A DNA stretch of 64,000 nucleotides from assembly GCA_964016885.1 (NCBI GenBank), contig OZ024740.1:112592001-112656000 (forward strand), written 5' to 3'. Below, in pieces: positions 2,900-63,960 of the stretch; the first letter of the stretch is position 1, and each line of letters opens with the position of its first letter. The stretch is from Eledone cirrhosa. Its lineage: Eukaryota. The notes below the pieces were generated by a model. That model worked only from the letters and a program-made list of their open reading frames with translations. It made no database searches and was not told where the DNA came from. The translations under genes were made by a program, and so were the position numbers.

Positions 2900-3280
<381 letters not shown>

Positions 3281-3340
3281 AGTAAGCTTGCTTGAATGCA
3301 TCCCGCTAAACCAAGCATATAACTATATAAAGGCGTGTGC

Positions 3341-3386
<46 letters not shown>

Positions 3387-3819: not shown

Positions 3820-4003
3820 TGTTTCTACTTTAGGCACAAGGCCAGCAAATACCCAGTGAATTACTGGTACTTTATTTTATCGACCCCGTAAGGATGAAAG
3901 GCAAAGTCAACCTCGGCGGGATTTGAACTCAGATCGTAAAGGGACGTAACTATGCTGGAAAGCATGGCGTCCGACCCTCTACCGATACTGCCAATCCACC
4001 ACC
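3820..4003 (-). mobile_element. tRNA-derived SINE, family 1, with target-site duplication
   Basis: A box TGGCAGTATCGG, B box GAGTTCAAATC, core GCCTTTCATCCTTACGGGGTCGATAAAATAAAGTACCAG; duplication agtcctttaata(g/a)taat at 3803-3819 and 4004-4020. Confidence 0.9.
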
Positions 4004-4020
4004 AGTCCTTTAATAATAAT

Positions 4021-4094
4021 GCTGTGATATATATTTCAATGACGACACTGGCCACACCGTTCTGTGTGCGAGTGTCGTGACATCATCAGACAGC
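4021..4094 (-). ncRNA. Type I hammerhead ribozyme motif
   Basis: Exact reverse complement of 5157-5230. Confidence 0.8.
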
Positions 4095-5156: not shown

Positions 5157-5230
5157 GCTGTCTGATGATGTCACGACACTCGCACACAGAACGGTGTGGC
5201 CAGTGTCGTCATTGAAATATATATCACAGC
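5157..5230 (+). ncRNA. Type I hammerhead ribozyme motif
   Basis: gctgt-CTGATGA-[acgacact..agtgtcgt stem II]-GAAA-tatata-TC-acagc; stem I gctgt/acagc. Confidence 0.82.
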
Positions 5231-5383
5231 ATTATTATTAAAGGACTTGAACATCTGAAACTACTTCGCTTTTACTTATTCGATATTTACTCCGTCACTC
5301 CTATGTGGAAAAAGTACGTTGAGTGCTTGAATTGAATTGCATCAATATTTACCCTAATATATACATATATATATATATATATA

Positions 5384-6338
5384 TCTGTATATATATAAAA
5401 TTAAGTATGTGTGTGTGTCTGTATATTACCTATAAGGGCCTACATCTTACGACCGATTTTCATGAAACTTTACAGGCTCATAGATTAGTCATCGGGGAGT
5501 GTTTTTTATATATCAGCGTATCGTTTTGTTTTTTTATTCCGGGGTAATTCTGCAGATAAAAATCGATAGGGGAGGAGGAGTTCACCTTTTTTTAGGTATC
5601 GAAAAATAAGATTTTTGGCTCTAGCTCCCTCATTTTGCCAACGATTTTGTTCAAATTTCAAAGCAATATAGAATTTATCATTGCACATCCTGTAATGACT
5701 TTATATTTTGCATTTGTTTTTCAGGGACGGCGTGGCAGCCGCATAAACATTCTAAAATAGCACTTTTAGACTCAAATTTCCACTGTTTCGGCTCTAGCTC
5801 TCACATTATTCAACCTATTTCGTTCAAATTTTACACTACGCTAGATCTGATTATTTCACGTCTTAAACTGGCTTTACATTTTGGATTTTTTGTTCAGGAA
5901 CGGCGTGACAGCCGCTTAAATATTCGAAAATACCACCTTTTCGCTCAAATTTCCGCCTTTTCGGCTCTAGCTCCCACATTTTCAACCGATTTCGTTCAAA
6001 TTCGAAACTTCGGCTCCACCTCACACATAAATCAATTTATTTGGCTCAACTTTGGCCACTGACGTCGTCTGAGCTTTTAGTTGTATATTTGAGTTTCATC
6101 GGTTTCCAATCAAGTAGCGTGAGGAAATTTTGCTTAGTGCTAGAGGTCATTACCTCCCTCCCCCACTATGCCCCTTCGTCAGTCACCCGCGTTTCTCAGT
6201 GATAGAGGTCATCACCACCCTCCCCCGCATGGCTTGTGTGTGGCCATAGATGAGTCATCGCGAAGCAGTCGCTAAGATCAACACCTTTTCATCAAAGCAG
6301 ATATTATTTTACCTACCCAGGCAACGCTGGGTACTGCT
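5384..6338 (+). mobile_element. Non-autonomous Helitron (copy 1)
   Basis: Starts a|TC; subterminal hairpin cccaggcaacgctggg; internal tandem subrepeats; homologous to 53024-53900; the terminal CTAG is eroded into the TA tract. Confidence 0.7.
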
Positions 6339-6755
6339 ATATATATATATATATATATAATTGAATAAACAAGAGAGATAAACACTAATATAAACATACA
6401 TGTGTTCGAATCGTAAGGACTAGGTTTCTCAACAACTACTGAGGAACAGAGAAACGTGTTGACTTCACTTAATAAGATGTTGCGCGACAGTTTTCAAAAC
6501 TGTCTAGTTGTTACCAGGCGATTGCCCGATATAGGTCTGTTATTTTTCTTAATTTACTACTTAAAATTAAGTCTGACAAGCCATATTGCTGTAGTTAGTA
6601 TTTTTTCACCCTAGCTAACCGAGTCTTTACGATTCGAACACATGTATGTTTATATTAGTGTTCATCTCTCTTGTTTATTCAATTATATTACACGGCTCGG
6701 AAAAGCTTTTTTCTTAGAGCTATTTAATTGTAAGAGACTACTCTGAGTTTCCAAC

Positions 6756-6810
<55 letters not shown>

Positions 6811-6973
6811 ATTAGGATTGGTGTTCTGAATTAGCGATGTATACATGAATGCATGTATAGTATATTTGGCAATATACTGTATGTTTAATTTAAAATATTT
6901 TGAAGACCTTGCGCTATTATTTTAAAGTAGTGACTATGTCAATTATTTCTTTTTTCAACAAAGGAAGGGAGAT

Positions 6974-7016
6974 AAGCTGATAGATCTGTTTCACACTGTT
7001 GGTGTTCATCAGAGCT
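6974..7016 (-). ncRNA. Minimal type I hammerhead motif (inverted copy)
   Basis: Reverse complement of 7199-7242 with one stem III mismatch. Confidence 0.65.
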
Positions 7017-7198
7017 CAGCACTCGCCGACCTTTGCTGAAAATTGAAAATTAGGATTGGTGCTCTGAAATAGCGATGTATACATGAATGTATGTATAGTA
7101 TATACTATATAATCTCTCTGTATAATCAGTTCCTGATTATTACTGGAATTCCATAAGAATCCAGCCTCTATAATTTTCAGCAAAGGTCGGCGAGTGCT

Positions 7199-7242
7199 AA
7201 GCTCTGATGAACACCAACAGTGTGAAACAGATCTGTCAGCTT
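7199..7242 (+). ncRNA. Minimal type I hammerhead ribozyme motif
   Basis: aagct-CTGATGA-acac caaca gtgt-GAAA-cagatctg-TC-agctt; palindromic stem III. Confidence 0.82.
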
Positions 7243-9769: not shown

Positions 9770-11520
9770 GCACATGGAAAAAATTCTGAATTTCTATTTA
9801 AAAAGTTTAGCTTAGAATAGATTATAGTGCGAGTCTCTAGAAGAGAGAGGTTACATAATCTATTCGGTGGTTTATACGATGCGGCCTTATCTATTACTTC
9901 CCATTGAAATGTCTATGTTCTATTCCTAGTTTTCAGAGAGTGTATGTAGTTAGATAAAGAAGTGGAGTTGGCTAGATGGCGATTTTTGAAAGTGTGGAGA
10001 TGCGAGTTATATCTCGTCCTGAAGCAGTTCGAAGTAGAACGGATATATGTTTTTGAAGTGTTATTTGTAATGACTGTGCATGAGTAAATGATGTCTTTGA
10101 TTAAGCAATTCTTTCCTAAGAGGCAAGTTCTATTTGTTCTACAATTACAGTTATTTTGGTTGTTTATTTGCTGGATAATAGGGTGTGTAGATGCATGGTT
10201 GTTAGGGATAGCATTAGGGTAATGATGATTATCATTCCCATTGTTATTAATTTCATTAGTGCTATTCCTATTATTTTATTGCTACTAGAATTCTCTGGTA
10301 CTATGTTGTTATGTAAGTTCACCCCCCGTTGCGATTTAATTAGTTGGAAATAATTATTAATCTTCCTTTTATTACTACTAGCTATATGGTACGCGATGTT
10401 AGGTGTGGTAGAGTAAGATATTTTAATGGTATTTTTATTGATAAGATTATGGTATTTGTGGCCGAGTGAGAAGAAAGCCTTAGGCAAGTTGGTGGAAACG
10501 TTTAGATTGAAAGGGGGATTGAAAAATGTATTAGTTCTTCTATTTTTTTAAAATGTTATTTGAGGTATTGTTTATATTTCTGTTTATATTATTATTATTG
10601 AGGTGTTTATTTTGGTGTGAGTTAAGTCTCATATTACCCTTCGTACTAATGTTAGAGTGGCTAGTACTTTTATTACTTTTATTCGTAGCCATATTGTGAG
10701 AAATAATGTTGTAACTAGGTGATTTTATAGGTAAAAATCTAATTTTATTTTATGGCCTGATCGAGCTAAGGCCTCATTATAGTATTGGGAATTACTGTTA
10801 AATATAGTTTCATTATATGATAGTGCGGAAATTCTATTACATATCCTTTAGTAATTGAGTTTAATATAGATTTAGGGTGGTTAGACTTGGTATCTACATA
10901 AAGTAGTTTTTCGTTTGGTTTATGAAAGGGTGTATATATTTTAGAGTCCAGGCAAAGGGTAGCATCAAGGAAGGTAACGTTTTTAGTGTTTTATCTAAGG
11001 TAATACTTAAGTTGAAGTTTTTAAATATTTTATGCAATTGTTTCCTAGTTCTTTCTATATTAAATTTTGTATAGTCAATAAGTAGTAGTGCATCGTCGCA
11101 GTATAAACCACCATTGAGGTATGGCAGATCCTTATGAATTTTATTTAAGAGATATAGACCCACCAAATCAGTGACCTGCGCCGTGTCACTAGATCCCATA
11201 GTTATGTCAAAGTTGTTAGGTGTATCCTTGCGGGTCCATAATTGATCTTCAAGTATAATTATGGTTTTACGGGCCGCAAGGATGGCATCGATTTGGGATC
11301 TAGTAAGGTCACTATTATTCATAGCCATAATTAATGTCTTGTTTAATAGGGTAGGAGAAATAGAGGTGTAGCACGAATTAATATCAAATTATATAATTTT
11401 TTAATTTTTATTCTCAATAATATCATTGAACCATTGAATAACTTCACCAGTATTTCCCCATAGGTTAAGATATATTTTATGCTTAAATTGGGAGATGATT
11501 CTGTCTAATCCTTTTTTGCT
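9770..11520 (-). pseudogene. Penelope-like RT + GIY-YIG endonuclease, disrupted
   Basis: FDITMGSSDTAQVTDLVGLYLL, GLYCDD, IKISYSTTPN, CNCRTNRTC..C, IIY...TYIRST..FRTRYNSH..F, LCNL. Confidence 0.85.
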
Positions 11521-11608
11521 GATAATGTTAATGACAACACTAATATCTACGTATCTTTACAATTGTTCTGTGGAATAGGAGGTCAATTATATGTCTAAAC
11601 TTTGCTAG

Positions 11609-14762: not shown

Positions 14763-15801
14763 AACAAAGTCAATCTGTGAACGCAGAAGTGAATATTTCA
14801 AAAAACGTTGCAACCGGAGGAAGACAGGAAGACGATACTTTGGTTCGTGGAAACGTTCCCTGACAAAGAACGGGAAAAAACGAATATAATACGTCATTAT
14901 TTGGAGCGGTAAAAAACAATTACACGCAAAGACAAAACCACGTTTATGGTATAAAAGAAGTCGTAGACTAATATTCTATTAGATGGTTCATAGAGACGTT
15001 CTCTGTCAATAAACGGAAACAACGAAGATAATACGTCATATGTGGAGCGGGGAGAACAATTGCACGCACAGACAAAACCACGTAAATGGTATAACTGAAG
15101 TCGTAGACTAAAATTCTAACTAGGAAACCGAATGATTCTCGGCTTCAGAGTTAAGAATAAAGTAAAAAAATACAGATGTCTGAAATTAAATAAATACATA
15201 CACGCATCCAATACGTACATACACAAGCATACGCGAAAACACTCGCCATAGGTATACAAATACACGCACGTACACGAAAAAAAAAAAATAATAACAAGCA
15301 CGCACATACAGAACCGACGCAACGCCTGTATCCGCACGCATACGAATGAATACACCAAATATACATAAAATATATATATAAAAAAAATATATATATATAC
15401 ATATGTGTGTGCGTGTATACATATAATTAAATAAACGTATATAAATATTTAAATACGTATATAACAAGCGCACACACATACCTACATGTAAATACACATA
15501 TGTTCGGAGACGTACGTCAGCCAAAACACAAAGTACACATATACACACACCCTACATACGTACGAACCCGCATACACACACAGACGCAAAACTCCAGTAT
15601 ACACATAACCAAAGTATATGTACCAGAATATATAATATATACACCTTAACATATACAATCAAATATACGTACGAGAAACTAAACGTACCTACACAAAACA
15701 TACAGGTAATATATACTTACCTATACAAATAAGTAATGGTATAAACATAACATATACTTAGCTACCACATCAAGACGTAAAATATGCGCGTATAGTTCGA
15801 A

Positions 15802-17803
15802 CTATCCGTTAGGGTATAATGTGGGGCTGTAATACAGGAAAGTTTTGTGCAATTTATCTTTACAAGCCGAAATTGCCTCAGATTTTTTGTTTAAGATGTG
15901 GTCTTTGGCGTAGAGTATTTCCAGGGCCTCAGCGGCGCAGAGGTCACATGGTCTTTTATTTCCGTTATACGATGTAGCCCTAGCTAGGATTTCCCAGTGC
16001 AACTTATATTGGGTGTGGCTGTCTTTTAGACTCCAGATATAAGCTGAAAGTGACGTCATATTCCTTCTTAAAGGGTAACGAAAAGAATGGTTGTGCATGT
16101 AAAGACGCTGCTTGAATCTATTGGCGGTTAACCCTATGTAGGCCCAACGGGACTTGGGTGTTTCAACCTTACATTTGTAGACAATGTTACTAGAGAGGCA
16201 TTCCCGGATAGGGGGCAGTCAACCCGATTCCTACAATTACAGTTAGTACTAACTACACCTGTTCCTACGGCTAGGAAGTTTAGCTAAATTTGAAGCTGTG
16301 ATGTTATGTGCAAGGTTAGGAGTCGTAGAGTAAGAAATTTTAATAGTATTTCTATTAAAAATGTTACTATATTTATGTATAGGGGGAAAATGCTTCGTAA
16401 TAAGGGAGAGAACGATTTTTGCTAATGGTGTGGGCACCTCCATATTATATGGTGGGTTATACCATATAATGCGTCGGGATCTATTTCTTCTAGGTCTATT
16501 CTCGTACTCTGTATAAGCTACCTTATCGACAAATCCATTCCGAGCAAGAGCTTCATTGTAATATGTGGAATGGTTGTTGAAAATATGCTCGTTAGTAGAT
16601 AGACGGGAAAGCCTCAAAGAAACGTTTCTTACCAGGTTCTTGGTTATGCTGGCAGGATGGTAAGAATGCTTACTTATGTAATTAAGCGTATCATTCGGCT
16701 TTCTATACGGGTAATGCAAGCCATTCAATAAATTGAGAGTAACGTCGAGGTAATTAACGACCGAGAGGTTGGCCCCAACCTGTATGGAGAGGTTGAAACC
16801 TTTAAAGAAGGCTGTGAGTTCTTTTCTGAACCTGTCACAAGCACGTGGGCCGCACTTAGTCACGGTCAAAAGACCATCATCACGGTACAAACCACCGCTC
16901 ACGTTGGGGAATTCTTCCTTGATAGAGGAAAGAAGGAAAAGGCCGATAAGATCAGTAACCTCCGCAGAATCGCTGGCGCCCATACTCACGTCGAATGGGG
17001 TACTATTAGATTTTTTAATCCAAATAGAGTCGTCGAAATTAATCACCGACTTACGGGCATTGAGGATGACATCAACTTCGAAATCCTTAACCACTGTGAG
17101 TGTTTTAGCGAAATTGATAGCTCTAAGGAAAAATAAGTAAAGTGATGGAGGAGTAGTAATTATTGATGTCGAATTGGATAAAACGGCAATGTTGCTTGTT
17201 GCATATGCCGTTGAACCAATCAATCACCGCGAAAGAATTGTTCCGCAGTGCAAGAGGGGCCAAACTTCTAATTTCAGCTATAATTCTATCAAGAATCCTT
17301 TTACTAAGTCTACCTAAATCGGACTTCGTAGGGTTAATAAGCCGAATAGAAGGGTTGTTCGGAAAATTGGATTCAGGGTAAAGTGGGGAGAAATAGGGTC
17401 CAGAGGTTCGGTCCGGTCCAGGATGTTGAGATCAGAGGTGATTTTAAACCCAGCATCGTTGATTTCATTAATGACGCTCCGATTAGTTTTACGGTAATCT
17501 TTAGTTACAGCATTATGTAGCAGTTGATGGTAAGTACTGCGCTCCACTTGATATAGATTGCCAGTTTTGTCGGAATGGACGTGCGCGGCATTAGAATCCT
17601 TAATAGAACGAATTCTATTCTTCAGGTCCTGCGGGAAGGAATTGCTCCTATTCCGAAATTTATACTCCGTATGAGTTCCAAGACATCATTTTAGAAGGGT
17701 AGCAATGCTGGGTTACTCGGAGGGTTATTATAGGTTTTAAACCCAAATTTATCCTGTTTGTTGTCTGCTTTTCCCAGATTATAGAAATAAAAGGCACGCC
17801 AAC

Positions 17804-17804
<1 letters not shown>
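15802..17804 (-). pseudogene. Penelope-like RT + GIY-YIG ORF with frameshifts
   Basis: RWRAFYF, SDKTGNLY, FDVSMGASDSAEVTDLIG, GLYRDDGL, YLDVTLNL, WYNPPY, CNCRNRVDCP, YIGLTANRFKQR, CDLC..E. Confidence 0.9.
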
Positions 17805-24367: not shown

Positions 24368-26150
24368 TCAGCTATATACTTTGTGAAAGGTCTTGTAGGA
24401 TTTATGATTACAAAATCCAAATAAATCAGTTCTTCGATTTATTATTGTGTTGAAATTCGAGATAATGGTAAATTTTTCAACTAGACATAAATTACAAACA
24501 CGAGATATGGAAGCATTGGAGTATGGAGATGCGTTGTAGATTTTACGCCAAGAAATTTCGTAATTTATGTGTTTGTCTTTTAAGGACCAAATAAGTTCTG
24601 AGAATGCGGTGCTGGTCCTTTTAAGTGGAGATTTAAATGTAGAAGAATGATTATAGAATCTTGCTTTAAAGGAGGTAGAAGTAGAGCGAATGTAGGTATA
24701 GGTATTGGTACTAGTTACCACTTTACATTCGTATACTAGGTTTTTATCGAGACAGAAATGACTAAGAGGACAATTAGTTCTAATAGGGCAGTTGCATTTA
24801 CGATTAAGATTATTTACAGAGTTATTAGCAAGTGGCCCAGGATTAATTATATTAGGAACTGGAGTGGTGGAATTAACTAAAGGAGGTGCTAAAGTTTCCA
24901 GATTTACATTACTATTTGATGCATTCCTCAAAGTTACGTTTGACGTCGTATTTATACTTGTGTTATTTTGCCTAGAGTTTACATTGACGTCGGGCCTTGT
25001 GTTATTATTATGACGCTCATGGTTGGATGCATATGAGTTATTATTTAATATTTTAGAATTATGTCTTGAGATAATTTTAGAAATGTTTAAAGTAGTAGAA
25101 TACGAGAATTTAATAGTATGCCTATTGAAAATCTTGCTATATATATGTGAAGGAGGGAAGCTGTTATGTAATGCCCTAAAAATAATTTAGGGATATTATT
25201 AATAATGGAAAGAGAGAAGGGAGCGTTGTACCAAAGAACATTTTTATATCTAGTCTCCCCCTTTTGTTAGCAGATTATTACTAGCTACATTACTAGAGTT
25301 ATTATAAGCTCTGCCAATATTAAGTTCTTTAGTATACCTAATTTTGTCTAGATATCCAGCCCTAGATAACGCATTATTATAATAGTTGGTATTAGCTTCG
25401 AAAATATCTTTATTAGAGGATAAATTAGAAATTCTTTTTTCTACACTTTTGACTATAGCAGTTTTAACATTATTAGGGTAGCTAGATTTAAAGTTAACGT
25501 AATTTAGGTTCTCATTACCCTTATGATATGGGTAATATAAGCCGGTATCTAGATTAAGGGATATATCAAGGAAATTTGCTAGTTTATCATTATTCTCGAA
25601 TTCAATTTTTAAGTTAAGATGCTTAAATAGATCAAGTATATTTTTCTTAATTATATTAAAGTTTACATTGTTACAATTAGAAACAGTAAAGAGAGCATCA
25701 TCATGATACATCCCACCGCAAAGTTGGGGAATTTTCCGGTTTAAAGAATTCAAGATGAAAATTCCAACTAAGTCGGTCAGTTGAGCTGAATCCGACGAAC
25801 CCATGGTGATGTCAAAATTGTTGGAAGTATCCGCCCATTCTTAAATTCCAAGATGGTTTTCCTAGCGGTGAGAATGATGTTTATTTCTTCACTAGTAATG
25901 TCCGTATATTTTAACGCACATGAGAGAGCCTTGTTTAGGAGTGAAGGAGAAATAGAAGAGTAGTAGCTAGCGATGTCTAATTGAATAATTTTCAGTTTGT
26001 TTTTATTTTTTAGGTCGTTGAACCAGTCTATTACTTCAGATGAACCCAAACATAAATAGTTGAGATTTATACGTAACCTGTGGGGCAATTCTATCCAAGA
26101 TGGATTTACTAACAACCCCTAGGTCAGATTTAGAAGGGGCAATTAGAAGG
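24368..26150 (-). pseudogene. Penelope-like RT + GIY-YIG ORF, disrupted
   Basis: LDIASYYSSI, MGSSDSAQLTDLVG, GMYHDDAL, FLDISLNL, CNCPIRTNCPL..FC, LVY..YIRSTSTSFKARFYNH, CNLCLVEK. Confidence 0.88.
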
Positions 26151-32098: not shown

Positions 32099-34556
32099 GT
32101 AATAATAATAAATTTGAAGACTAAAATCCAAAGAGGGCTCGATAAGGATAAATATATATAAAATATATAAGAACCGTAGAGCAAATATTTATTAAAATAA
32201 CAGATTAAAGTTTAAGCAAAGAATCGCTGCTTTCACCCTTAACGGGATCTTCTGAACCTAACAAAGTCAATCTGTAAACGCAGAACTGGAAATTTCAAAA
32301 AACGTTGCAACCGGAGGAAGACAGGAAGACGATACTTTGGTTCGTGGAAACGTTCGCTGGCTAATAACGGGAAAAAACGAATATAGTACGTCATTAATAG
32401 GAGCGGTGAAAAACAATTACGCGCAAAGACAGAACCACGTTTATGGTATAAAAGAGGTCGTAGACTAATGTTCTCTTAGGTGGTGCATAGAGACGTTCTC
32501 TGGCAATGAACGAAAAAAACGAAGATAATACGTCATATGTGTAGCGTGGAGAACAATAGCACGCAAAGACAAAACCACGTAAATGGCATAGCAGAAGTCG
32601 TAGACTAAATTCTAACTAGGAGACCGAATGAATCTCCGCTACAGAGTTAAGAACAAAGTAAATAAATACAATACAGAAGTAATAGAAATAAATAAATACA
32701 TACACTCAAACAAATACGTACATACACAAGCATACGCAAAAACTTACCATAGGCAAACAAAACCACGCACATATAAATATGTGTGTGTGTGTAAGCATGT
32801 ATACAAATAAATAAATAATTATATAAACGTATATAAATAAATAAATACGTATATAACAAGCACACACACATACCTACATGTAAATACACGAATGTTCGAA
32901 AACGTAAGTCAACCAAAACATGAAGTACACATATACACACGCCCTACATACGTACGAATCTGCATACTCACACAGACGCAAAACTCCCGTATACACATAG
33001 CAGAACCATATGTACCAGATTATCTAAAAAAAATTATACGCCATAACAATCAAATATACGTACGAGAAGGTATACGTACTTTCACAAAACATACGGATAA
33101 TATATACTTACCTATGCAAATAAGTAAAGGTATAAACAAAACATATACTTAGCTCCCACATCAAGACGTAAAATATCCATGTATAGATCGTACTATCCGT
33201 TAGGGTATAACGTGGGGCTGTAATACAGGAAAGTTTTGTGCAATTTATGTTTACAAGCCGAAATTGCCTCAGATTTTTTGTTTAAGATGTGGTCTGTGGC
33301 GTAGAGTATTTCCAGGGCCTCAGCGGCGCAGAGGTCACATGGTCTTTTATTTCCGTTATACGATCTAGCCCTAGCTAGGATCTCCCAGTGTAACTTATAT
33401 CGGGTGTGGTTGTCTTTTAGACTCCAGATATAAGCTGAAAGTGACGTCATATTCCTTCTTAAAGGGTAACGAAAAGAATGGGTATGCATGTAAAGACGCT
33501 GCTTAAATCTATTGGCAGTTAACCCTATGTAGGCCCTACGGGACGTGGGTGTTACAACCTTACATTTGTAGACAATGTTACTAGAGAGGCATTCCCGGAT
33601 AGGGGGCAATCAACCCGATTCCTACAATTACAGTTAGTACTAACTACAGCTTTGCACGTGTTCCTACGGCTAGGTAGTTTAGCTAAATTTGAAGCTGTGA
33701 TGTTATGTGCAAGGTTAGGAGTCGTAGAGTAAGAAATTTTAATAGTATTTCTATTAAAAATGTTACTATATTTATGTGTAGGGGGAAAATGCTTTGTAAT
33801 AAGGAAAAGAAAGATCTTAGCTAATGGTGTGGGCACCTCCATATTATATGGAGGGTTATACCAACAAATGCGACGGGATCTATTTCTTCTAGGTCTATTT
33901 TCGTACTCTGTATATGCTACCTTATCGACAAATCCACTTCGAGCAAGAGCTTCATTGTAATAAGTGGAATGGTCGTTGAAAATATGCTCGTTGGTGGAAA
34001 GACGGGAAAGCCTCAACGAAACGTTTCTTACCAGGTTCTTGGTTATGCTGGCAGGATGGTTGGAATGCTTACTTATGTAATTAAGCGTATCATTCGGCTT
34101 TCTATACGGGTAATACAACCCATTCACTAAATTGAGGGTAACGTCGAGGTAATTAACGACCGAGAGATTGGCCTCAACCTGTATAGAGAGGTTGAAGCCT
34201 TTAAAGAAGGCTGTGAGTTCTTTTCTGAACCTGTCGCAAGCACGAGGTCCGCACTTAGTCATGGTCAAAAGACCATCGTCACGGTACAAACCACCGCCCG
34301 CGTTGGGGAATTCGTCCTTGATAGAGGAAAGAAGGAAAAGGCCGATAAGATCAGTAACCTCCGCAGAATCACTGGCGCCCATACTCACGTCGAATGGGGT
34401 ACTATTGGATTTTTTAATCCAAATAGAGTCGTCGAAATTAATCACCGACTTTCGGACATTGAGGATGACATCAACTTCGAAATCCTTAACCACTGTGAGT
34501 GTTTTAGCGAAATTGATAGCTCTAAGGAGAAGTGGTAAAGTGATGGAGGAGTAGTA
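32099..34556 (-). mobile_element. Penelope-like element D (same family as B)
   Basis: Collinear with 14696-17155; TA-rich tracts at both ends. Confidence 0.9.
33193..34555 (-). pseudogene. Penelope-like RT + GIY-YIG, 5'-truncated, frameshift near 33600
   Basis: YYSSIT, GLYRDDGL, CNCRNRVDCP, IVY..AYIGLTANRFKQRLY.H, CDLCAAE, CKH. Confidence 0.9.
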
Positions 34557-40971: not shown

Positions 40972-41063
40972 TTTGTGGTTTTACTAGTACACGGTGTTAT
41001 TGTATTGCTAGCAAGTATACGCTTTCTTAAAGATAATATTTGATATTTGTTTTTACTCCATCA

Positions 41064-42869
41064 TATCAAATTGTAAGAGAAGAAAAGTAAATGAAGAAAA
41101 CAGAACATTTAATGTACCGTGGGAGTTAGATTTTTTCTTTACTTCTGTGAAAGATAAAATGGTGTGTTTGTTGTGCAATACAGTTTTAACTACTTTGAAA
41201 AAAGCGAATGCAAATAAACATTATTTGACTCATAAAGAACATAAATATATCAATTTAGAAGGTGAATCTCGACAAGCTGCACTTAAAAAATTGAAAAATG
41301 AAAAGCATCATCAACAGATGTCTTTTAGTGCTTTTGTGAAGAATAATTCCACTGCAGTTGATGTTTACAAAATAGCACATATACTTGGAAAAAGAGGAAA
41401 ACCATTTAGTGACGTAGAAATAATTAAAGAATGTATTGTTGAAGCAGTGGGTATGTTAGATCCAGAAAAAGTTGATAAATACAAACAATTGCCTTTTTTA
41501 GAAGAACTATAACAGATCGCCAGCACGAATTAGGTCAAAATGTAACAGAGCAACTTCGTACAATTATACAAAATGAAGATGTTTATTTTTCAATTGCTTT
41601 GGATGAAAGAACTGATAAAACTGACTTGGCGCAAGTTTTATATTTTATTCGTGCTGTAACTAAAGATTTTCAGTGTTACGAAGAACTTCTTGCGCTGGGT
41701 ACACTAACTGAAAGAACTCGCGAAGTTGACATTTTCGAAAACTTCAGAGAGGTATGTCATCGATTACAATTAAGTGTCAGTAATTTAGTCAGTGTCTGCA
41801 CCGATGGCGCACCCTCTATGAAAGGTAAAAAAGAAGGATTCGTTTCTTTTTTTAAAAAAGGAAAACTTAAACTTGAAAAAATTGATATCATTTCACTGCA
41901 TTTTGCATCAGCAAAATCTTTGCGCAAAATCCACCATTTTGCAAGACGCTCTGGATAGAGCAATTGCGATTGTCAACCATATTCGCGTTAATGCAATGCG
42001 TCATCGCGAATTTAGGCAGATTCTAACTTTAGACGAAGAAACGTACAGTGTTGATCTACCGTACTACTGCAAGGTTCGCTGGCTATCAACAGTACAGGTT
42101 TTGATAAAAGTTTAAACTTTACGACGACAAATTTTAAACTTTTATCAAGAAGAAGGAAAACTTTGTGATCTATCAGATGAAGCATTTTGCAGAAAAATTG
42201 CATTTTTGTCTGATATCAGGACAAAACATAACAATTTAAATATTTGCCTGCAAGGTAAAACGAAGCATATATATGAAATGGGGCAAAAGATCCAAGCGTT
42301 TCGAAAAAAATTAACATTTTTCAAAACATTACTCTCTCGCACGGATATATCTGCAGAACACTTCCCGGAGCTAGCAAAAATGTTGAATGAGCAGAAATGG
42401 GAAAACAAAATATTCGATGAATATGTAGGTGTCTTGGATTCTTTAATAGAAGAATATACTGAAAGATTTTCAGATTTTGACGAACACACACCTGCTATGA
42501 AACTGGTATTTGAACCACATTTAGTAGATATATTCCGAGGTTCCTACGGAACTACAAGTTGAGTTATTTGAGTTGGGGGAAGATAGTATCCTTAAATCCC
42601 TTTTTGACGCTAAAAAGGATCCCATAGAAATCTGGTCAAATGCTGTTGAATATCCACGCCTACGAGAGCATGCACGCCGTTTACTTTCCTGCTTTGGAAG
42701 TTCTTACTGCTGCGAGTCAACATTTTCTCTCATGACAAAAATTGAAACTACTTTAAGAACGCAAACCACAGATGCTTATTTAGAGGATCAATTAAGGCTG
42801 CGCATTACGAAGCTTGATCCAAATCTTCAATTACTTTCAAGCAAGAAACAAATGCAAATATCCCACTAA
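41064..42869 (+). pseudogene. hAT transposase (GTF2IRD2-like/Buster family), frameshifted
   Basis: KRRKV..ENRTF...W, CLLC..H..H, GKPFSD.E, FSIALDE.TD..D.AQ, CTDGAPSM, FHCILHQQNLC, VRWLS, FGSSYCCESTFS. Confidence 0.9.
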
Positions 42870-44346: not shown

Positions 44347-44410
<64 letters not shown>

Positions 44411-44417
<7 letters not shown>

Positions 44418-44866
44418 GCAATATACCGTATGTTTAATTAAAAACATTTTGAAGAGCTTACGCTATTATTTTAAAGTAGTGACTATGTCACTTACTTCTT
44501 TTCGGCGAAAGAAGACAGAGAGGATAACAGTCTCTTTCATGCTGTTTGGCAATTATCAGAGCTAGGTACTGCCCTCTTCCGCCGAAAATTATAGAAGCTG
44601 GATTCTTATAGAATTCCAGTAATAATCAGGAGCTGATTATACAGCTCCTGATTATTACTGGAATTTTATAAGAATCCAGCTTCTATAATTTTCGGCGGAA
44701 GAGGGCAGTACCTAGCTCTGATAATTGCCAAACAGCATGAAAGAGACTGTTATCCTCTCTGTCTTCTTTCGCCGAAAAGAAGTAAGTGACATAGTCACTA
44801 CTTTAAAATAATAGCGTAAGCTCTTCAAAATGTTTTTAATTAAACATACGGTATATTGACAAATAT
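44411..44866. repeat. ~450-bp fold-back element (family of 6807-7350) with degenerate hammerheads
   Basis: Arms are reverse complements around ggagctgattatacagctcc; the core reads CTGATAA. Confidence 0.85.
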
Positions 44867-44912
44867 ATTATGCATACATTCATGTATACATCACTATTTC
44901 AGAGCACAAATC

Positions 44913-46255: not shown

Positions 46256-46296
<41 letters not shown>

Positions 46297-46346
46297 TAAT
46301 GAAATGACAGGAGGCTGGATTTGTGTAAATCCTTGAAAGGTTTATT

Positions 46347-46404
46347 ATACTATGATCATTTCAATGACCGGGTTCCGTATGAATCCGGTGATATCATCAG
46401 GTAT
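46347..46404 (-). ncRNA. Type I hammerhead ribozyme motif
   Basis: Reverse complement of 47244-47301. Confidence 0.78.
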
Positions 46405-47243
46405 TCGAAATATAATACGTGAATGTAATAGATAAAATCCATGGGGCTGAAAATCGAGGACCCGAGGGCGACCGCTATTCCGCTCCTTCAACCTCAGCCG
46501 GTCGTCCTCGAGTGACGTGGCTAAAGTTCACAGTGTGCTACTACCGGTCAGATAAACGAAAACAGAAAGGGATGGGAACATAAGTTAGCGTCAATCTCAT
46601 GCCACAAGATAAAAGAAAGAAAGAAAGGAAGGAGAGAGAAGAAGGGGGAAGGAAGAAGAAGAGAAGCCAGGGTTAATGTCAGCTATAAGAAGAAAGACAA
46701 CTACTACCGGTCAGATATAGGCAAATAAAAGGGGGAAGGAAGATAAGTCTGCGGGAGGAAGACAGGAAGAGGGGAGAAGAGAAGGAAGAGAAGAGAGAAG
46801 TAGAAAAGTAAGGGTTGTTGGCTACAAGAAGGAAGATAGAAAGAAAGAGGAAGAAAGGTCGATATTAATGTCAGACCACAGTCAGGCCAGGAGTGGCGCG
46901 AGAAAATGTTCACAGGGACCCGCATCTTAGCAGAGGTGAATATATTGGGAGTCTGTGTGTTACAATGTTTAGACTTATAGGATGAAGTTAAAAAAATTAA
47001 TAATCAATATTCAATATTAAGGAGGTTAGAAAATTTAAAGTTAAACAGTTTAACATTTTCAGGTTGATATATCTAATAGTTCCGATTTGATCTGTAATTT
47101 AGCGGTACTATATGGCGGTTAAAACACCGGCCGCACTCGAGGACGACCGGCTGAGGTTGAAGGAGCGGAATAGCGGTCGCCCTCGGGTCCTCGATTTTCA
47201 GCCCCATGGATTTTATCTATTACATTCACGTATTATATTTCGA

Positions 47244-47301
47244 ATACCTGATGATATCACCGGATTCATACGGAACCCGGTCATTGAAATGATCATAGTA
47301 T
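47244..47301 (+). ncRNA. Type I hammerhead ribozyme motif
   Basis: atac-CTGATGA-tatc accgg..ccggt catt-GAAA-tgatca-TA-gtat; palindromic stem III. Confidence 0.8.
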
Positions 47302-47784
47302 AATAAACCTTTCAAGGATTTACACAAATCCAGCCTCCTGTCATTTCATTATAATATTTAACTCCGTAATAGCACCATCAACTACAAAAACAAAGACGGT
47401 TGAACTGCCTTACGTTGAGTACTCTCTATATTATTGCATTACGATTGACCATACGGAATAGACAGCTCTATACAGTGGTGAACCTCAAACCTGAATAAAT
47501 AATGCTCCTGAAATGTTGAGCACTTCAAAATGTAATAAGGAACAGCGGCATGGGACTGAATATATCTAACCACCATTCGAACTTTGGCTTCTCGGTGCTT
47601 TCGCCTGGCCCATTGCTACTTCCCTCTCAGTATATTCGAACTTCGACGAAACCCTACGGATTAGACCATAACATGTATTGTACTGCATTGTATTAACTAA
47701 ATTCGCTACCCTATACTTCTGGGCATGTATAACTCACACTGAATTCCCAGACTCGAACACACACTGTTTCCACATCTATACGCA

Positions 47785-48460
47785 TTATCTGACTGCAACT
47801 TGAACTATATTGTATTTCTCCTGTGTCTTGAACTCTCCATTTAATAGACAACGACTCTTGTTTGTTTATTTATATCTTTACATCTTTATTTGCTGTATTA
47901 ATGCTTTTCCATGTATTCTACCCCTATACATACATGTACTTTTTACTTCCCTTATTCGGACTTTTATTCGCGTGTACCCTTAGCACACGACACTGGAATA
48001 TCTCCCCCTGGGAACATGAATACTGCAACCTGAACTATATTGTATTTCTCCTGTGTCTTGAACTCTCCATTTAATAGACAACGACTCTTGTTTGTTTATT
48101 TATATCTTTACATCTTTATTTGCTGTATTAATGCTTTTCCACGGACTTTTACTCGCGTGTACCCTTAGCACACGACACAAGATTGTCTCCCCCCGGGAAC
48201 ATAAATACTGCGACCTGAACTATATTGTAATTCTCCTATGTCTTGATTTCTCCATCTTACTCCAACACCACTCTTGTTGGTTTATTTACATGTTTATACC
48301 TATATATTGATATGTTTATATATTTATACCTTTGCTTTAACAATGTGCTCTTCAACGTATTCCACTTCTATGTATCCATGTATTTCTACTCCTCACATTG
48401 CGACTTTTGCTCACTTGTACCCATTAGCACACGACACTAGAATGTCTCCTCCTGAGAACA
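47785..48460. repeat. Internal degenerate tandem repeat (~180-240-bp units, about 3 copies)
   Basis: actgcaac.tgaactatattgtatttctcctgtgtcttga and tagcacacgacac each recur three times. Confidence 0.8.
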
Positions 48461-49605
48461 AAAATAAATACTACACAACTATATCCCGCACTCTACATCC
48501 CACTAGGATAAATTACAGATCTACATAATACAATTAACGTTTCTTCATAAAAGACTCTCTTTAATTAAACCCCGCAACCCAAAACCTCATAGAAGTTCTG
48601 TAAATGTTTAATCTTCAATTTTCTGTTTGTTCAATTCTCAATCTTCTTACTCTTTAATTTTATAATGTTATTCTGAATTCTTTCAACTTCATCCGATAAA
48701 GTTAAGCAATATTTTAAGGTTCCAACTTTCTGTCGGACTGTCGGGTGGGTTTTAATGGCGGCGCGACCAGGCCCCTGGCGCACGGTCTTACCCGGAGTGC
48801 TTGGAAAAATAAATTTCCCCTTCTTTCGGTAAATGAAAATACTCGGCGTAGCTTAATTCGCCCTGCTGCCCTGAGCGCGGCCGGTGTTTTAACCGCCACA
48901 TAGTATCGTTAAATTACAGAACAAATCGGAACTATTAGATATATCAACCTGAAAATGTTAAACTGTTTAACTTTAAATTTTCTAACCTCCTTAATATTGA
49001 ATATTGATTATTAATTTTTTAACTTCATCCTATAAGTCTAAACATTGTAACACACAGACTCCCAATATATTCATCTCTGCTAAGATGCGGGTCCCTGTGA
49101 ACATTTTCTCGCGCCACTCCTGGCCTAACTGTGGTCTGACATTAATATCGACCTTTCTTCCTCTTTCTTTCTATCTTCCTTCTTGTAGCCATCAACCCTT
49201 ACTTTTCTACTTCTCTCTTCTCTTCCTTCTCTTCTCCCCTCTTCCTGTCTTCCTCCCGCAGACTTATCTTCCTTCCCCCTTTTGTTTGCCTATATCTGAC
49301 CGGTAGTAGTTGTCTTTCTTCTTATAGCTGACATTAACCCTGGCTTCTCTTCTTCTTCCTTCCCCCTTCTTCTCTCTCCTTCCTTTCTTTCTTTCTTTTA
49401 TCTTGTGGCATGAGATTGACGCTAACTTATGTTCCCATCCCTTTCTGTTTTCGTTTATCTGACCGGTAGTAGCACACTGTGAACTTTAGCCACGTCACTC
49501 GAGGACGACCGGCTGAGGTTGAAGGAGCGGAATAGCGGTCGCCCTCGGGTCCTCGATTTTCAGCCCCATGGATTTTATCTATTACATTCACGTATTATAT
49601 TTCGA

Positions 49606-49663
49606 ATACCTGATGATATCACCGGATTCATACGGAACCCGGTCATTGAAATGATCATAGTAT
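49606..49663 (+). ncRNA. Type I hammerhead ribozyme motif
   Basis: Same sequence as 47244-47301, 2362 bp downstream. Confidence 0.8.
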
Positions 49664-49857
49664 AATAAACCTTTCAAGGATTTACACAAATCCAGCCTCC
49701 TGTCATTTCATTATAATATTTAACTCCGTAATAGCACCACCAACTACAAAAACAAAGACGGCTGAACTGCTTTACGTTGAGTACTCTCTATATTATTGCA
49801 TTACGATTGACCATACGGAATAGACCAGCTCTATACAGTGGTGAACCTCAAACCTGA

Positions 49858-49951
<94 letters not shown>

Positions 49952-59839: not shown

Positions 59840-62800
59840 CGCGGGGACAAAAAATGGATGCCCGATCGCGCAGTTAAACCACTGGGAGTGAAGAACCCCT
59901 AGCCCTTGTCAGGGCATTCTTCTAGGAGAAGGCATCTCAGGAAACTGGGTTAACTCCGACATAAAACCTGCGGCTCAGTAGTTACCGATGATGTTGATCT
60001 TTTCTTCTTTTCGGGTTATAGCTACTGTCGCTCAGAGAGTGGGATTGGCTCAGTGCACAGTCTTTCCTCACTTTAAAAATATTCGTCACGCACAGGCATT
60101 GCACGAGTGCATTAATAATTATTAATAGTGTACTATTAAATGAAATCATTATTATTATTTCTCCACAAATGTCCCTTGGAAGTCTCCCCCCTATTGGGGA
60201 ATTTTTCTTTGTTATTTTATTTCAACCTCTGTTTTTTTACACGCAGAAATGCCCATTTGTACCGTCCTGTATTGTCCTGTACTGTCCTTAATGTCTACTT
60301 TATGTGAACCCTTGTGGTTAATAAAGAAAACATTAATAATTATTAATAGTGTACTATTATTATTATTATTATTATTATTACTATTATTATTACTTTTTTT
60401 TTTTTCAATTCAATGATGTTCCAGAACAATATAAAAGAGATAATTGGCAATTTAGGTTCTGGAACAAAAAAGATCATTGGCAATAAGGGCAGGGGCCCCA
60501 GGTTATCACAGCCTGGGCCCGCTCGTCATCGTGCCATTGTAATAGAGCCAAACAAGGCATTTAGTCTTGGCTGCTGGAACGTACGGACGCTGCTTGACAG
60601 GGATTCCTTGGGGCGTCCTGAACGAAGGACCTCTCTTGTTGCAAAGGAGCTTCGACGTTACGATCTTGACATCGTGGCTTTATCTGAGATGAGGCTAGCT
60701 GGAGATGGTCATCTTACGGAATTTTGTGGAGAATATACATTCTTCTGGAAAGGAAGAGATGAAGGAACCAGAAGAGAGGCTGGGGTAGGATTTGCTATTA
60801 AGACTGTGCTTGTGAACAAATTAGAAGAATTCCCAGTAGGGATTAGTGAGCGTCTTATGTCCATGAGAGTTCCGCTGGACAAGGGAAGATATGCTACCCT
60901 GGTGAGTGTGTATGCTCCAACTATGAGTTCTGTCGATGAGGAAAAGGTGTCCTTTTACCATGCCTTGAAAGGTGTTTTAAGAAATATCCCTCAGGCAGAC
61001 AAAGTCATCGTCGTGCTTGGTGACTTTAATGCTAGAGTGGGTAGGGATTTTAACACATGGAATGTAATCGGAAGGCATGGGGTGGGAAAGTGTAACAGCA
61101 ATGGTATTCTCCTGCTGCAGATGTGTGAGGAGCTGGATCTGTGTGTTACCAACACCATGTTCCAACAAAAGAACAAATTCAAGACCACATGGATGCATCC
61201 TGCATCTAAGGAATGGCATCTTTTGGACTACGTCCTAGTCAGGATGCGTGACAGACAGGATGTGCAGTGTGTTCGTGTTCTTCGTGGAGCTGAGTGCTGG
61301 ACGGACCACCGCCTGGTACGCGCAAAATTGAAACTAATCACTAAACGTAAAATCCGGGCTCCTGGTGTTGCCCTGCCCAAAAGATTGAATGCTGCTCGTC
61401 TTAAGGATAAAAATGTGAAGTGGACATTGGAAGAAGAGATGCAGGCTGCAGATCTTGGTGAGGATTGGCCGACCCTTAAAAAGTCGGTTTATGATGTAGG
61501 CAGGCGTATTCTGGGATTGGCGCAGAGGAAACATCAGGACTGGTTTGATGAGAATGATGTACATATAGAAGACTTGTTGGCTGATAAGAGGCGTGCTCTG
61601 TCACGCTACTTGACGGCAAAACCACAGGAGAGGAATACATTGCATGAGGAACTCAGGGATGTAAAATCACGTGTTAGGCGGAGTCTTTCTCAGATGAAGG
61701 ATCAGTGGTGGAGTGAGAAGGCTGGTGAGATACAAACTGCGTCTGATTCCAATAACACAAAGCTGTTGTACAGTCTCTTGCGTGAGGTTTATGGACCGTC
61801 TTCTTCTCTGGTGACACCGCTTCGCAGCAAGGATGGCAAAGAACTTCTTCGTGACTCACAGGGAATTCTACGAAGATGGCGAGAGCACTTTGATGATCTT
61901 TTGAATCAGCCGTCTGTCGTCAGTGAAGATTTCCTCAATCTCATTCCTGAAAGTCCTGTGAAAGTAGCTCTCGCAGAACCTCCGACGCTTGTGGAGGTTG
62001 CAGTGGCTATTTCGAAGCTGAACAGTGGAAGATCTCCAGGTATGGATGGCATACATGCTGAGCTCCTACAATATGGTGGTGAGAGACTCCTGCACCATCT
62101 TCACTCTTTGTTTGGCAGGATATGGGCTAATGAATCCGTACCTGAGGACTGGAGAGATGCAGTAATGATGGTCTTGTACAAGGGAAAGGGTAACAGGAAC
62201 GATTGTGGGAACTACAGAGGTATATCATTGCTTTCTGTCGTAGGGAAAGTTTTATGTAGGGTGCTTCTGGACCGTCTGCTGACACACATTGCAGATTGTG
62301 TTCTTCCTGAAAGTCAATCTGGTTTTCGTGCTGGACGCGGCACTACTGATATGATCTTCTCAGCTAGACAGCTCCAGGAGAAGTGCATGGAGCAAGGCTT
62401 GGATCTGTATCAGGTTTTTGTCGATCTGACAAAAGCTTTCGATACTGTTAACAGAGATGCATTATGGAAGGTTCTCCAGAAACTTGGTTGCCCTGATAAG
62501 TTCCTTGCTTTAGTTAGGTCTTTCCATGACGACATGGAGGCTTGGGTTAATGTCGGGGTAACATGTCGGAGCCTATCTCAGTAAAAAATGGAGTGAAACA
62601 GAGGGATATTCCAGCACCGACCCTGTTTGCCATATACTTTGCAATGGTTTTCTGTATTGCATTCAGGAATTGCGAGCATCGTGTTTACATCCGATATCGA
62701 ACCTCAGGCAGCATATTTAACATCAGGCGCTTTGCTGCGAAGACAAGAGTATTTACATCAATCATAAGAGACCTCTTGTATGCAGATGATTGCGATCTTG

Positions 62801-63960
62801 TAGCGCACACAGAGAGAGATATGCAGCACATTTTGAATGCATTTTCTGACGCTTGCACTGCCCTAGGATTGACTGTCAGTCTCAAGAAAACCATCGTCAT
62901 GTACCAACCTGCCCCTGGTAAGCAGTACACTGAACCAAACATCTATGTGTATGGCAAACGACTTGGAGTGGTTGATCAGTTTGTCTACCTGGGAAGCACT
63001 GTCAATCGATACAGCAACCTTGACAGTGAAATCTCACTTAGGATTAGGAAAGCAAGTGATGCTTTCGGAAAGCTAGAAAGGCGACTCTGGGGTCGGCGAG
63101 ACATATGCAGGAGGACAAAGGTAAAGGTGTACAGGGCATGTGTGCTCTCTTGTCTTCTTTATGCCTGCGTACCTGGGTCACATATCGACACCACCTTAAG
63201 CAATTGGAGCGTTTCCATCAGATGTGTCTCAGACGGATCCATGGCGTTCACTGGAGGGACCACATCAGTGATGTCGAGATTTTGGAAAGCTGTATGTGTG
63301 ACAGTATAGAAGCTCTTGTGCTTAAGCAACGACTCCGTTGGAGTGGTCACCTTGCCAGGATGAAGGATTCTAGAATACCAAAACAACTCTTTTATGGAGA
63401 GTTGGTTAAAGGAAAACGACCGCCACATAAACCAAAAAAGAGGTATAAGGATTCCTTGAAAGCCTCTCTGAAAGACGCTAATATCTCTGCTGATACATGG
63501 GAGAATATTGCTGCTGATCGTAATAAATGAAGACTGTATATGAGGGAAAAGTTGCCTTTGAGGCATCTCGAATCGCATACGAGAAAGTAAAGCGGGCTGT
63601 GAGGAAGGGCATTGCTGTTGCACTTCCATACGGCGAGGATCCTCCTATGGTGCTGACATGCAGCGTATGTGCGAGACTCTGCCTAAGCAAAGCTGGACTC
63701 GAAAGTCATCTTCGCAGCCATAAAGTAAGACCAGTGGTTGACTACCAGGCTGCTGTTGGAGATGCTACTCATCATGCTTGCCAAACATGTGGTAGAGAAT
63801 GTAAGTCAGCAGGAGGGCTCAAGCGACATGCAAAAGTACACGAACTCCAACCACAGCCGACTATTCCCAGTGAATGTTTTGGTTGCCGACTCTGTGCAAG
63901 ACATTTTAGATAATTGGCTGGGCTAAAAAGCCACATTCGATCGCAGTGCTGTTAGTTGCT
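59840..63960 (+). mobile_element. RTE-clade LINE, near full length
   Basis: APE-RT ORF with few lesions; GC-richer putative 5' UTR at 59840-60110 (boundary inferred). Confidence 0.85.
60413..63955 (+). pseudogene. RTE ORF2: AP endonuclease + reverse transcriptase + C2H2 zinc fingers; frameshifts near 62560 and 63170, in-frame stops at 63528 and 63911
   Basis: GCWNVRTL, ALSEMRL, GVGF, VYAPT, GDFNARVG, LDY, TDH; YRGISLLS, QSGFR, FVDLTKAFDTV, GVKQ, LYADD, FVYLGS, RLRWSGH..RM. Confidence 0.92.

What the first reader, a model, noticed from the sequence alone, without database searches (positions are those of the whole stretch)
46292..49862. ORF-less three-ribozyme element defining a 2362-nt ribozyme-to-ribozyme unit
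Seen: two direct copies of a ~365-bp terminus, each with the same hammerhead (cores at 47248 and 49610), plus an ~840-bp inverted arm carrying a third. The repeats are nearly identical, the body has internal tandem repeats, and there is no RT. Established: retrozymes release monomers between tandem hammerheads that can circularise, and PLE insertions show tandem plus inverted termini. Inference: a recent, unusually long non-autonomous retrozyme-like element. Its two tgatca stems could form a dimeric hammerhead in cis, and read-through would yield long dsRNA.
Basis: partly seen in the sequence, partly recalled or inferred. Interest (0 to 1): 0.72.

Follow-up and report, generated by a model that had tools for sequence, protein, structure and literature searches.

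The report
Kilobase-scale ribozyme passenger of Penelope retroelements
This is one insertion of a protein-free jumping element whose self-cutting-RNA motif occurs thousands of times in this animal genome; it was likely pasted into TA repeats as two back-to-back arms by a borrowed Penelope-type enzyme, and its 2-3 kb unit is several times longer than published animal elements of this kind, but whether the RNA cuts itself or forms a circle is untested.

Summary
In detail: 368/369-nt direct termini 2362 nt apart, an 846-nt inverted arm, three identical hammerhead motifs and no ORF. It is not a purpose-built three-ribozyme element. It is one copy of an abundant non-coding family: 1875 exact hammerheads genome-wide, and hammerhead-to-hammerhead units of 2.0-3.3 kb. 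Copies end at two fixed sites about 144 nt apart, in (TA)n. Of 33 fully typed two-armed insertions, 32 pair one end of each type. This is the known Penelope-like (PLE) tandem/inverted/'tail' layout. The end signals resemble those of Hydra-clade PLEs in this genome, but no coding partner sharing the terminus was found. Reverse transcription runs through the predicted cut site. Repeated passes show no position-specific variants (0 of 80 differences), unlike an internal 514-nt duplication (352 of 609). That points to one monomer copied more than once, by a circle or a template jump. No RNA data were available. This scan noted the same anatomy before, in 0.3-1.3-kb families on other DNA. What is new here is mainly the size and this internal control.

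The parts
46293..49864 (.). Whole two-armed insertion inside a (TA)n tract; no discernible target duplication
46258..46292 (.). Left (TA)n target
49858..49949 (.). Right (TA)n target
46293..47138 (-). Inverted, 5'-truncated arm ending at fixed end A (copy of 48873-49717)
46347..46404 (-). Hammerhead motif in the inverted arm (core at 46400)
47134..47138 (.). Head-to-head junction of the two arms, 5-base overlap with one mismatch
47134..49864 (+). Direct arm, 1.16 units long, ending at fixed end B
47139..47184 (+). 11-bp hairpin upstream of the hammerhead, with compensatory changes across subfamilies (also at 49501-49546)
   Evidence: 4 of 11 pairs change on both sides
47244..47301 (+). Type I hammerhead motif: 4-bp stem I, long bulged stem II with U-U at its base, 2-bp palindromic stem III; predicted cut after 47297
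47298..49659 (+). Predicted 2362-nt cut-to-cut monomer, no ORF
47361..47420 (+). RCTC...GAGY signal about 8 nt after end A
47504..47521 (+). RCTC...GAGY hairpin about 7 nt after end B
47792..48466 (+). Degenerate internal repeats (spacings 230, 185, 259)
48703..49216 (+). 514-nt segment, single here, duplicated or triplicated in many family copies
48793..48948 (+). Block conserved across divergent subfamilies, little predicted structure; candidate internal promoter (inference)
49606..49663 (+). Second direct hammerhead motif; predicted cut after 49659
49721..49864 (+). About 144-nt 'tail' between end A and end B, present only on the B arm

Best explanation
This is one insertion of a high-copy, non-coding repeat family with a 2-3 kb unit, likely a passenger mobilised in trans by the enzyme of a Penelope-like retroelement, probably of the Hydra clade. 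Inferred mechanism: the borrowed GIY-YIG endonuclease nicks both strands of a (TA)n tract. Each nicked end primes reverse transcription at one of two internal start sites on the same sense RNA (A and B, 144 nt apart, each just upstream of an RCTC...GAGY signal). The two cDNAs run upstream through the hammerhead cut site, stop at random points and join head to head through a few matching bases. The B-primed cDNA here ran 1.16 units, so it passed the hammerhead twice. Two direct hammerheads plus one inverted hammerhead are the by-product. The template likely offered one monomer to be copied more than once. I favour a hammerhead-cut, re-ligated circle (about 50%) over a linear RNA with a template jump (about 30%) or uncut multimeric read-through RNA (about 20%). 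Shown: family, fixed ends, A+B pairing, read-through of the cut site, shared haplotype of arms and passes. Inferred: the enzyme, priming, cutting and circularisation.
For: Copy number: 1875 exact hammerheads, 3464 with a free loop II, and 1409 first-look candidates for the ORF-less body, with nested 5' truncations. 3' ends cluster at unit positions 220-225 and 364-368, almost always into (TA)n. Of 46 head-to-head pairs examined, 32 were A+B, 1 A+A, 0 B+B, 9 had one damaged end and 4 were cut by the locus edge. The tandem plus inverted plus tail layout is described for PLEs (PMC8557442, PMC3846280, passages). Two internal RT starts bounding the tail and cleavage of both strands were shown in vitro (PMC11167929, parts 1-2 of 4). 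Hydra link: an active 785-aa Hydra-type PLE here also has two ends about 140 nt apart. Its tail aligns to ours (z 5.1, 0 of 200 shuffles; best of 13 termini compared, ignoring two 9-nt stubs with degenerate z) and has CTC...GAGY after both ends; two Neptune-like tails lack it. Cut site read through: 1 of 45 examined copies of the 28-mer just after the cut stops within 2 nt of it. Single template: arms and passes of one locus share otherwise unseen alleles at 1.3 and 1.0 per kb against 0.05 per kb between loci. Of 80 differences between passes at 14 loci, 0 recur with the same polarity, against 352 of 609 for the internal 514-nt duplication at 24 pairs. There is no excess of differences downstream of the cut (22/1624 against 58/3165 upstream), which a linear RNA with a jump would tend to give.
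Against: There are no RNA data, so expression, cleavage and circles are untested. The active hammerhead fold is far from the predicted minimum (-1.3 against -15.2 kcal/mol). In the Anolis PLE, uncut RNA was the dominant substrate and hammerhead mutants still inserted (PMC11167929). Li et al. saw cleavage in 1 of 9 dimers (10.64898/2026.07.22.740005). No coding PLE sharing the terminus was found in 30 loci each of four coding families. The window copy itself shows the opposite of the pooled trend: 0/156 differences upstream and 3/186 plus an indel downstream of the cut, one at a site polymorphic in the family. Its arm differences are clustered (10 of 10 in the inner 409 of 846 nt). Passes differ in the copy number of the 514-nt repeat at three loci (L149, L152, L158), which needs slippage or later deletion. 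The CTC...GAGY signal was not found after end B of a second Hydra-type family or, in strict form, after end A of a third. The loci were chosen by similarity or chromosome order, not at random.
Confidence: 0.8

Rival explanations
1. Same non-autonomous PLE passenger, but the template is uncut linear RNA: either read-through of tandem master loci, or a cut monomer-plus-tail with a template jump. The hammerhead is then weak or protein-gated, and no circle is needed.
For: Unprocessed RNA was the dominant substrate for the Anolis PLE (PMC11167929). The active fold is disfavoured. Copies of up to about 1.7 units exist that could serve as masters (L149, L158). The window's termini differ only downstream of the cut. 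Young masters with few sampled daughters would also give no recurrent differences.
Against: Pure read-through should let 5' and 3' passes drift into separate lineages, as the internal duplication did; they did not. In a divergent subfamily the passes are 96.5% alike while 83% like the window (L277). There is no pooled downstream excess. The hammerhead is the best-conserved part across subfamilies 78-87% alike.
Confidence: 0.4
2. The body is a decayed or deleted coding PLE, or the long UTR of one, and the family is not independently selected.
For: One locus has a Hydra-type ORF fused to the family's last 940 nt (L263). Coding PLEs here have UTRs of 1-2.5 kb.
Against: That fusion is single-copy (1 of 30 loci of that family; unique junction). 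There is no protein similarity in the body. Complete ORF-less hammerhead-to-hammerhead units occur at 12 loci. Structure is conserved by compensatory change.
Confidence: 0.1
3. A designed three-ribozyme, dsRNA-producing locus (host-selected or element-encoded), as the finding's title suggests.
For: A transcript entering from the left flank could form 846-bp and 222-bp duplexes.
Against: Arm lengths and hammerhead number vary freely between loci. The junction is a one-off truncation joint. No A>G excess was found (52 of 836 singleton changes).
Confidence: 0.04
4. Assembly artefact or post-insertion fold-back duplication.
For: The element lies between microsatellites, and no long reads were seen.
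Against: The arms differ by 1.2%, the inverted arm ends exactly at family site A, and 32 other loci obey the same rule.
Confidence: 0.03

Closest known systems
Animal non-LTR retrozymes (PMC7229834: passages and Discussion read; bioRxiv 10.64898/2026.07.22.740005: parts 1-3 of 5 read)
   Same: Non-coding unit bounded by type I hammerheads; more-than-unit copies; low GC; proposed PLE mobilisation. The hammerhead resembles axolotl HHR_Amex2 (2-bp helix III, U-U at the base of helix II).
   Different: The unit is 2.0-3.3 kb, against about 170-400 nt (with a passing 'to >1000 nt') and 51-972 bp; Li et al. capped tandem periods at 1000 bp, so they could not see it. At most about 1.7 units were seen, not long arrays. 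RNA and circles are not shown here.
Insertion units of EN+ Penelope-like elements, Hydra clade (PMC8557442: passages and section 11; PMC3846280: passages and section 9; PMC11167929: parts 1-2 of 4)
   Same: Partial tandem giving pseudo-LTRs, adjacent inverted 5'-truncated copy, tail on one end only, (TA)n targets, hammerhead in the pLTR.
   Different: No RT or GIY-YIG ORF. The tail is about 144 nt rather than 30-40 nt, although an active Hydra-type PLE here has about 140 nt.
Non-autonomous PLEs and pLTR-flanked cargo (Chlamys MRC1, PMC8557442 passage; Pen3a-NRPS and non-coding captures, PMC3846280 section 9)
   Same: [quoted passage not shown]
   Different: The rotifer cases are single captures, whereas this is an amplified, multi-subfamily lineage. 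Unlike the Chlamys passengers, no 3' sequence identity to an autonomous family was found.
PLE hammerheads acting as dimers (PMC4209133, passages)
   Same: Short helix I, long helix II, palindromic helix III; a circular template was proposed there to explain more-than-unit copies.
   Different: Those flank coding ORFs about 3 kb apart; here they flank non-coding DNA.

Membership tests
Autonomous EN+ PLE | ORF with RT and GIY-YIG endonuclease | tested here: not met
   Longest ATG ORF 73 aa; no tblastn hit in the element with two PLE proteins
Non-autonomous PLE (PLE-type insertion) | Partial tandem plus adjacent inverted 5'-truncated copy | tested here: met
Non-autonomous PLE (PLE-type insertion) | Two fixed 3' ends with a tail on one arm only | tested here: met
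   32 of 33 typed pairs A+B; ends listed
Non-autonomous PLE (PLE-type insertion) | Variable 5' truncation and dispersed copies in (TA)n | tested here: met
Non-autonomous PLE (PLE-type insertion) | Autonomous partner sharing the terminus | tested here: inconclusive
   None in 4 x 30 coding loci; only a weak tail alignment and motif shared with Hydra-type families
Non-LTR retrozyme | Type I hammerhead with intact core in each unit | tested here: met
   no Rfam hit
Non-LTR retrozyme | No coding capacity | tested here: met
Non-LTR retrozyme | Short monomer (about 150-1000 nt) in tandem arrays of two or more units | tested here: not met
   Units 1966-3346 nt at 12 loci; longest arm about 1.7 units
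Non-LTR retrozyme | Self-cleavage and accumulation of linear and circular monomer RNA | not testable with these tools
   No RNA holder listed; contigs only
Plant LTR retrozyme | Type III hammerhead in true LTRs, 4-bp TSD | tested here: not met
   Type I hammerhead; the 5' edge of the repeat varies between copies; ends lie in (TA)n

The most novel reading that the evidence does not exclude
A long-lived lineage of 2-3.3-kb non-coding RNA circles, several times larger than any animal retrozyme in the papers read, is copied round the ring from both ends of a DNA break by a Hydra-clade Penelope enzyme. The genome keeps the proof: each pass of the monomer is reset to identity, while an internal duplication is inherited linearly. 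The same enzyme complex can occasionally switch between this RNA and a coding PLE mRNA within one insertion.
Probability: 0.4. Interest if true: 0.65.

Novelty: new variant of a known kind. Interest (0 to 1): 0.42.

Why it matters
How PLEs regenerate their pseudo-LTRs, and what their hammerheads do, is still open: circles were proposed (PMC4209133, PMC7229834), while uncut RNA worked in vitro (PMC11167929). This family offers a protein-free substrate with mapped start sites and a built-in genetic control for single-template copying. It also shows that PLE passengers can carry 2-3 kb of cargo, a size that tandem-repeat screens capped at 1 kb miss. The kind of element and its layout are known, and this scan has noted the layout repeatedly, so the gain is incremental unless the circle is shown.

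Tried and rejected
Rfam: no hit at gathering threshold for the window, and only TA-repeat noise at E up to 10. Partner search: 30 loci each of an active Hydra-type family, a Neptune-like family and two more Hydra-type families showed no shared terminus, apart from neighbouring insertions and one fusion. 60 further loci, chosen mostly for variant hammerheads, showed no ORF running into the terminus. An apparent Hydra ORF-terminus link in L017 was an insertion into that element's own TA end. The two PLE-passenger fusions (L263 Hydra-type, L275 Neptune-like) both pair PLE end B with our end A, but they involve two clades and could be target deletions, so they are not used to name the partner. Intron: a 416-nt deletion ending at a pyrimidine tract plus CAG occurs once in the genome and has a GC donor, so it is not accepted as splicing. 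ADAR signature: none in sense orientation. Expression: no RNA holder listed. Four runs of unknown kind, contigs only and from one study, hold the family; their depth is not a copy number. No contig bridges this locus's arm junction, which proves nothing. Folding z-scores of the terminus and hammerhead were unremarkable (-0.8 and -0.5). One search's repeat labelling failed and was redone. One search's cut-site pattern was one base off and was redone. In one search the part of L158 next to a deletion was left out. No earlier scan note matched this sequence. Literature: 6 searches showed no kilobase animal retrozyme in the listings or in the papers read. An octopus repeat-annotation paper has no mention of hammerhead or ribozyme (PMC13282606, term search only). 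No supplements were read; bioRxiv supplements are closed and may list longer families.

Full report
Observation. The element runs from 46293 to 49864 between two (TA)n tracts. Self-comparison gives direct repeats 47134-47501 and 49496-49864 (98.9%, spacing 2362) and an inverted arm 46293-47138 matching 48873-49717 (98.8%). A motif scan finds identical type I hammerheads at +47248, +49610 and -46400, with predicted cuts after 47297 and 49659. Rfam does not detect them. The monomer has no ORF above 73 aa from ATG and no similarity to two PLE proteins from this genome. Below, q is the position in the direct arm (q1 = 47134).

Family. The genome is 3.0 Gb. The 54-nt hammerhead occurs exactly 1875 times, against 0 for the control. 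It occurs 3464 times with a free loop II, and the 28 nt after the cut occur 4665 times. The ORF-less body gives 1409 first-look candidates, 40 of them scored, with nested 5' truncations. Hammerhead-to-hammerhead spacings at 12 loci range from 1966 to 3346 nt (the 3110 value spans a discontinuity). The variation comes mostly from a 514-nt segment that is single here and duplicated in many copies. Subfamilies 78-87% identical keep the hammerhead, the ends and an upstream 11-bp hairpin. In 20 aligned termini, 4 of the hairpin's 11 pairs change on both sides, while the hammerhead helices are nearly invariant. The shuffle control there ignores relatedness.

Insertion rule. The 3' ends fall at q220-225 (A) or q364-368 (B), nearly always followed by (TA)n. 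Of 46 head-to-head pairs, 32 are A+B, 1 is A+A and 0 are B+B; 13 could not be typed. Either arm can be the long one. In the window the inverted arm ends at A, the direct arm ends at B, and the two meet through a 5-base overlap with one mismatch. This is the tandem/inverted/tail layout described for PLEs (PMC8557442 and PMC3846280, passages). Frangieh et al. showed in vitro that a PLE protein cuts and extends both strands and starts at two internal RNA sites bounding the tail (PMC11167929). The three hammerheads are therefore a by-product of two arms, one of which ran past one unit.

Which enzyme. An active 785-aa PLE with Hydra hallmarks (RWK, DKT, CxCX5C, as listed in PMC8557442 section 11; sequence) also has two ends about 140 nt apart. 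Its tail aligns with ours at z 5.1. I noticed an ACTC...GAGT motif after end A in several families. An earlier scan note on twin hairpins prompted the check after end B. Both our ends lie 7-8 nt before such a motif; there are only 5 such starts in the monomer, and 3 of them lie in the tail zone. The active Hydra-type element has the motif after both ends. A second Hydra-type family has it only after A, a third not in strict form, and two Neptune-like tails lack it. No coding element shares our terminus in sequence. I put a Hydra-clade partner at about 65%. Two single fusions with coding PLEs, one Hydra-type and one Neptune-like, are suggestive only.

Template. Both start sites lie downstream of the predicted cut, so nearly every copy crosses it. 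Among 45 hits of the post-cut 28-mer in 37 loci, chosen because most lacked an exact hammerhead, 1 stops within 2 nt of the cut. The template is thus uncut or re-ligated there. Arms longer than one unit reach about 1.7 units. Within a locus, arms and passes share alleles unseen in the other sampled loci at 1.3 and 1.0 per kb, against 0.05 per kb between loci (66 loci). The two passes at 14 loci differ at 80 of 4789 sites, and none of these differences recurs with the same polarity. The internal 514-nt duplication differs at 609 of 10055 sites in 24 pairs, and 352 of those differences recur. So the internal repeat is inherited as two lineages, while the monomer passes are reset. This requires that one monomer be copied twice, at least often. 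A circle does this, as proposed in PMC4209133 and PMC7229834. A linear RNA with a jump also does it, but tends to predict extra differences downstream of the cut; pooled data show none (22/1624 against 58/3165). The window copy alone leans the other way (0/156 upstream, 3/186 plus an indel downstream). Three loci differ between passes in repeat number; in L158 the shorter pass is a hybrid of its own two repeat copies, which fits slippage or deletion. With 14 loci out of thousands, young masters with unsampled siblings cannot be excluded.

Ribozyme. Stem III is two pairs around a palindromic loop. The monomer active fold scores -1.3 kcal/mol against a -15.2 minimum that sequesters the core. The 8-nt palindrome duplex scores -7.2. 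Weak, dimer- or protein-dependent cleavage is expected, as reported for similar motifs (PMC4209133, PMC7229834, PMC11167929). Whether the two motifs can meet across 2.36 kb is untested. If the promoter is the conserved block at 48793-48948 (inference), this copy lacks it upstream of its first direct hammerhead and would be a poor source of monomer. Long dsRNA would need a flanking promoter, and no A>G excess was found.

Comparison and verdict. It works like an animal non-LTR retrozyme and inserts like a PLE. It fails the short-tandem-monomer feature of retrozymes and the ORF feature of PLEs, so it is best filed as a non-autonomous PLE of unusual size. Published animal monomers are 170-400 nt or 51-972 bp, the latter from a screen capped at 1000 bp. 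Kilobase cargo between pLTRs is known as single events. Earlier scan notes describe the same two-armed anatomy in 310-1300-nt families, and call this genome cephalopod; they are leads, not support, and I did not verify the organism. Verdict: real, a new size variant of a known kind, interest 0.42.

Noticed in passing
L263 (G000:C1:58219500-58228500), about 3777-6865: Two-armed insertion in (TA)n. The left arm is the long-tailed end of a young Hydra-type PLE; the right arm is that PLE's ORF fused 81 nt after the stop to this family's last 940 nt, ending at A. It is single-copy, and is either a template switch between two RNAs or an insertion with target deletion.
   Followed up: partly
L275 (G000:C1:57310000-57319000), about 2453-7200: Same layout with a Neptune-like PLE (arms 99.5% identical), fused mid-endonuclease to this family's last 850 nt.
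   Followed up: partly
L249, about 123-128 nt after the anchor near the ORF end: A copy of the 758-aa Hydra-type PLE that lacks its microsatellite-rich 3' segment and joins directly to the hammerhead; possibly a spliced copy.
   Followed up: no
L150 about 3061-3080 (window equivalent about 48846-49261): 416-nt deletion from GC to a pyrimidine tract plus CAG; found once in the genome.
   Followed up: yes
window 4089, 5162, 7204, 7938, 21611, 21750, 23511, 27028, 30404, 39388, 44136, 57312: Twelve more hammerhead-like motifs in 64 kb. 21611/21750 and 39388 match a Neptune-like PLE terminus; several others carry the ACTC...GAGY tail motif.
   Followed up: partly
window 9784-11532, 15817-17804, 24386-26146, 33208-34550 (minus strand): Four decayed Hydra-type PLE ORFs; two have 140-bp tandem repeats downstream (14841-15118, 32350-32608), close to the tail length.
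   Followed up: partly
L033-L062: Very young Hydra-type PLE family (785-aa ORF, 99% identity, many intact copies). Its terminus has CUGAUGA...GAAA but no canonical type I hammerhead by my scan.
   Followed up: partly
window 60350-63309 (+): LINE with AP endonuclease and RT, in two frames.
   Followed up: no
window 41012-41958 (+): Spin-doc zinc finger (PF18658) ORF fragments, probably a DNA transposon remnant.
   Followed up: no
window 44409-44868: 227-bp near-perfect inverted repeat with a 6-nt spacer between TA tracts; probably another two-armed stub.
   Followed up: no
L107, L112-L118 (G000:C12, 17.0-17.5 Mb): The same Neptune-like fragment recurs about every 60 kb, suggesting a large segmental tandem array.
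   Followed up: no
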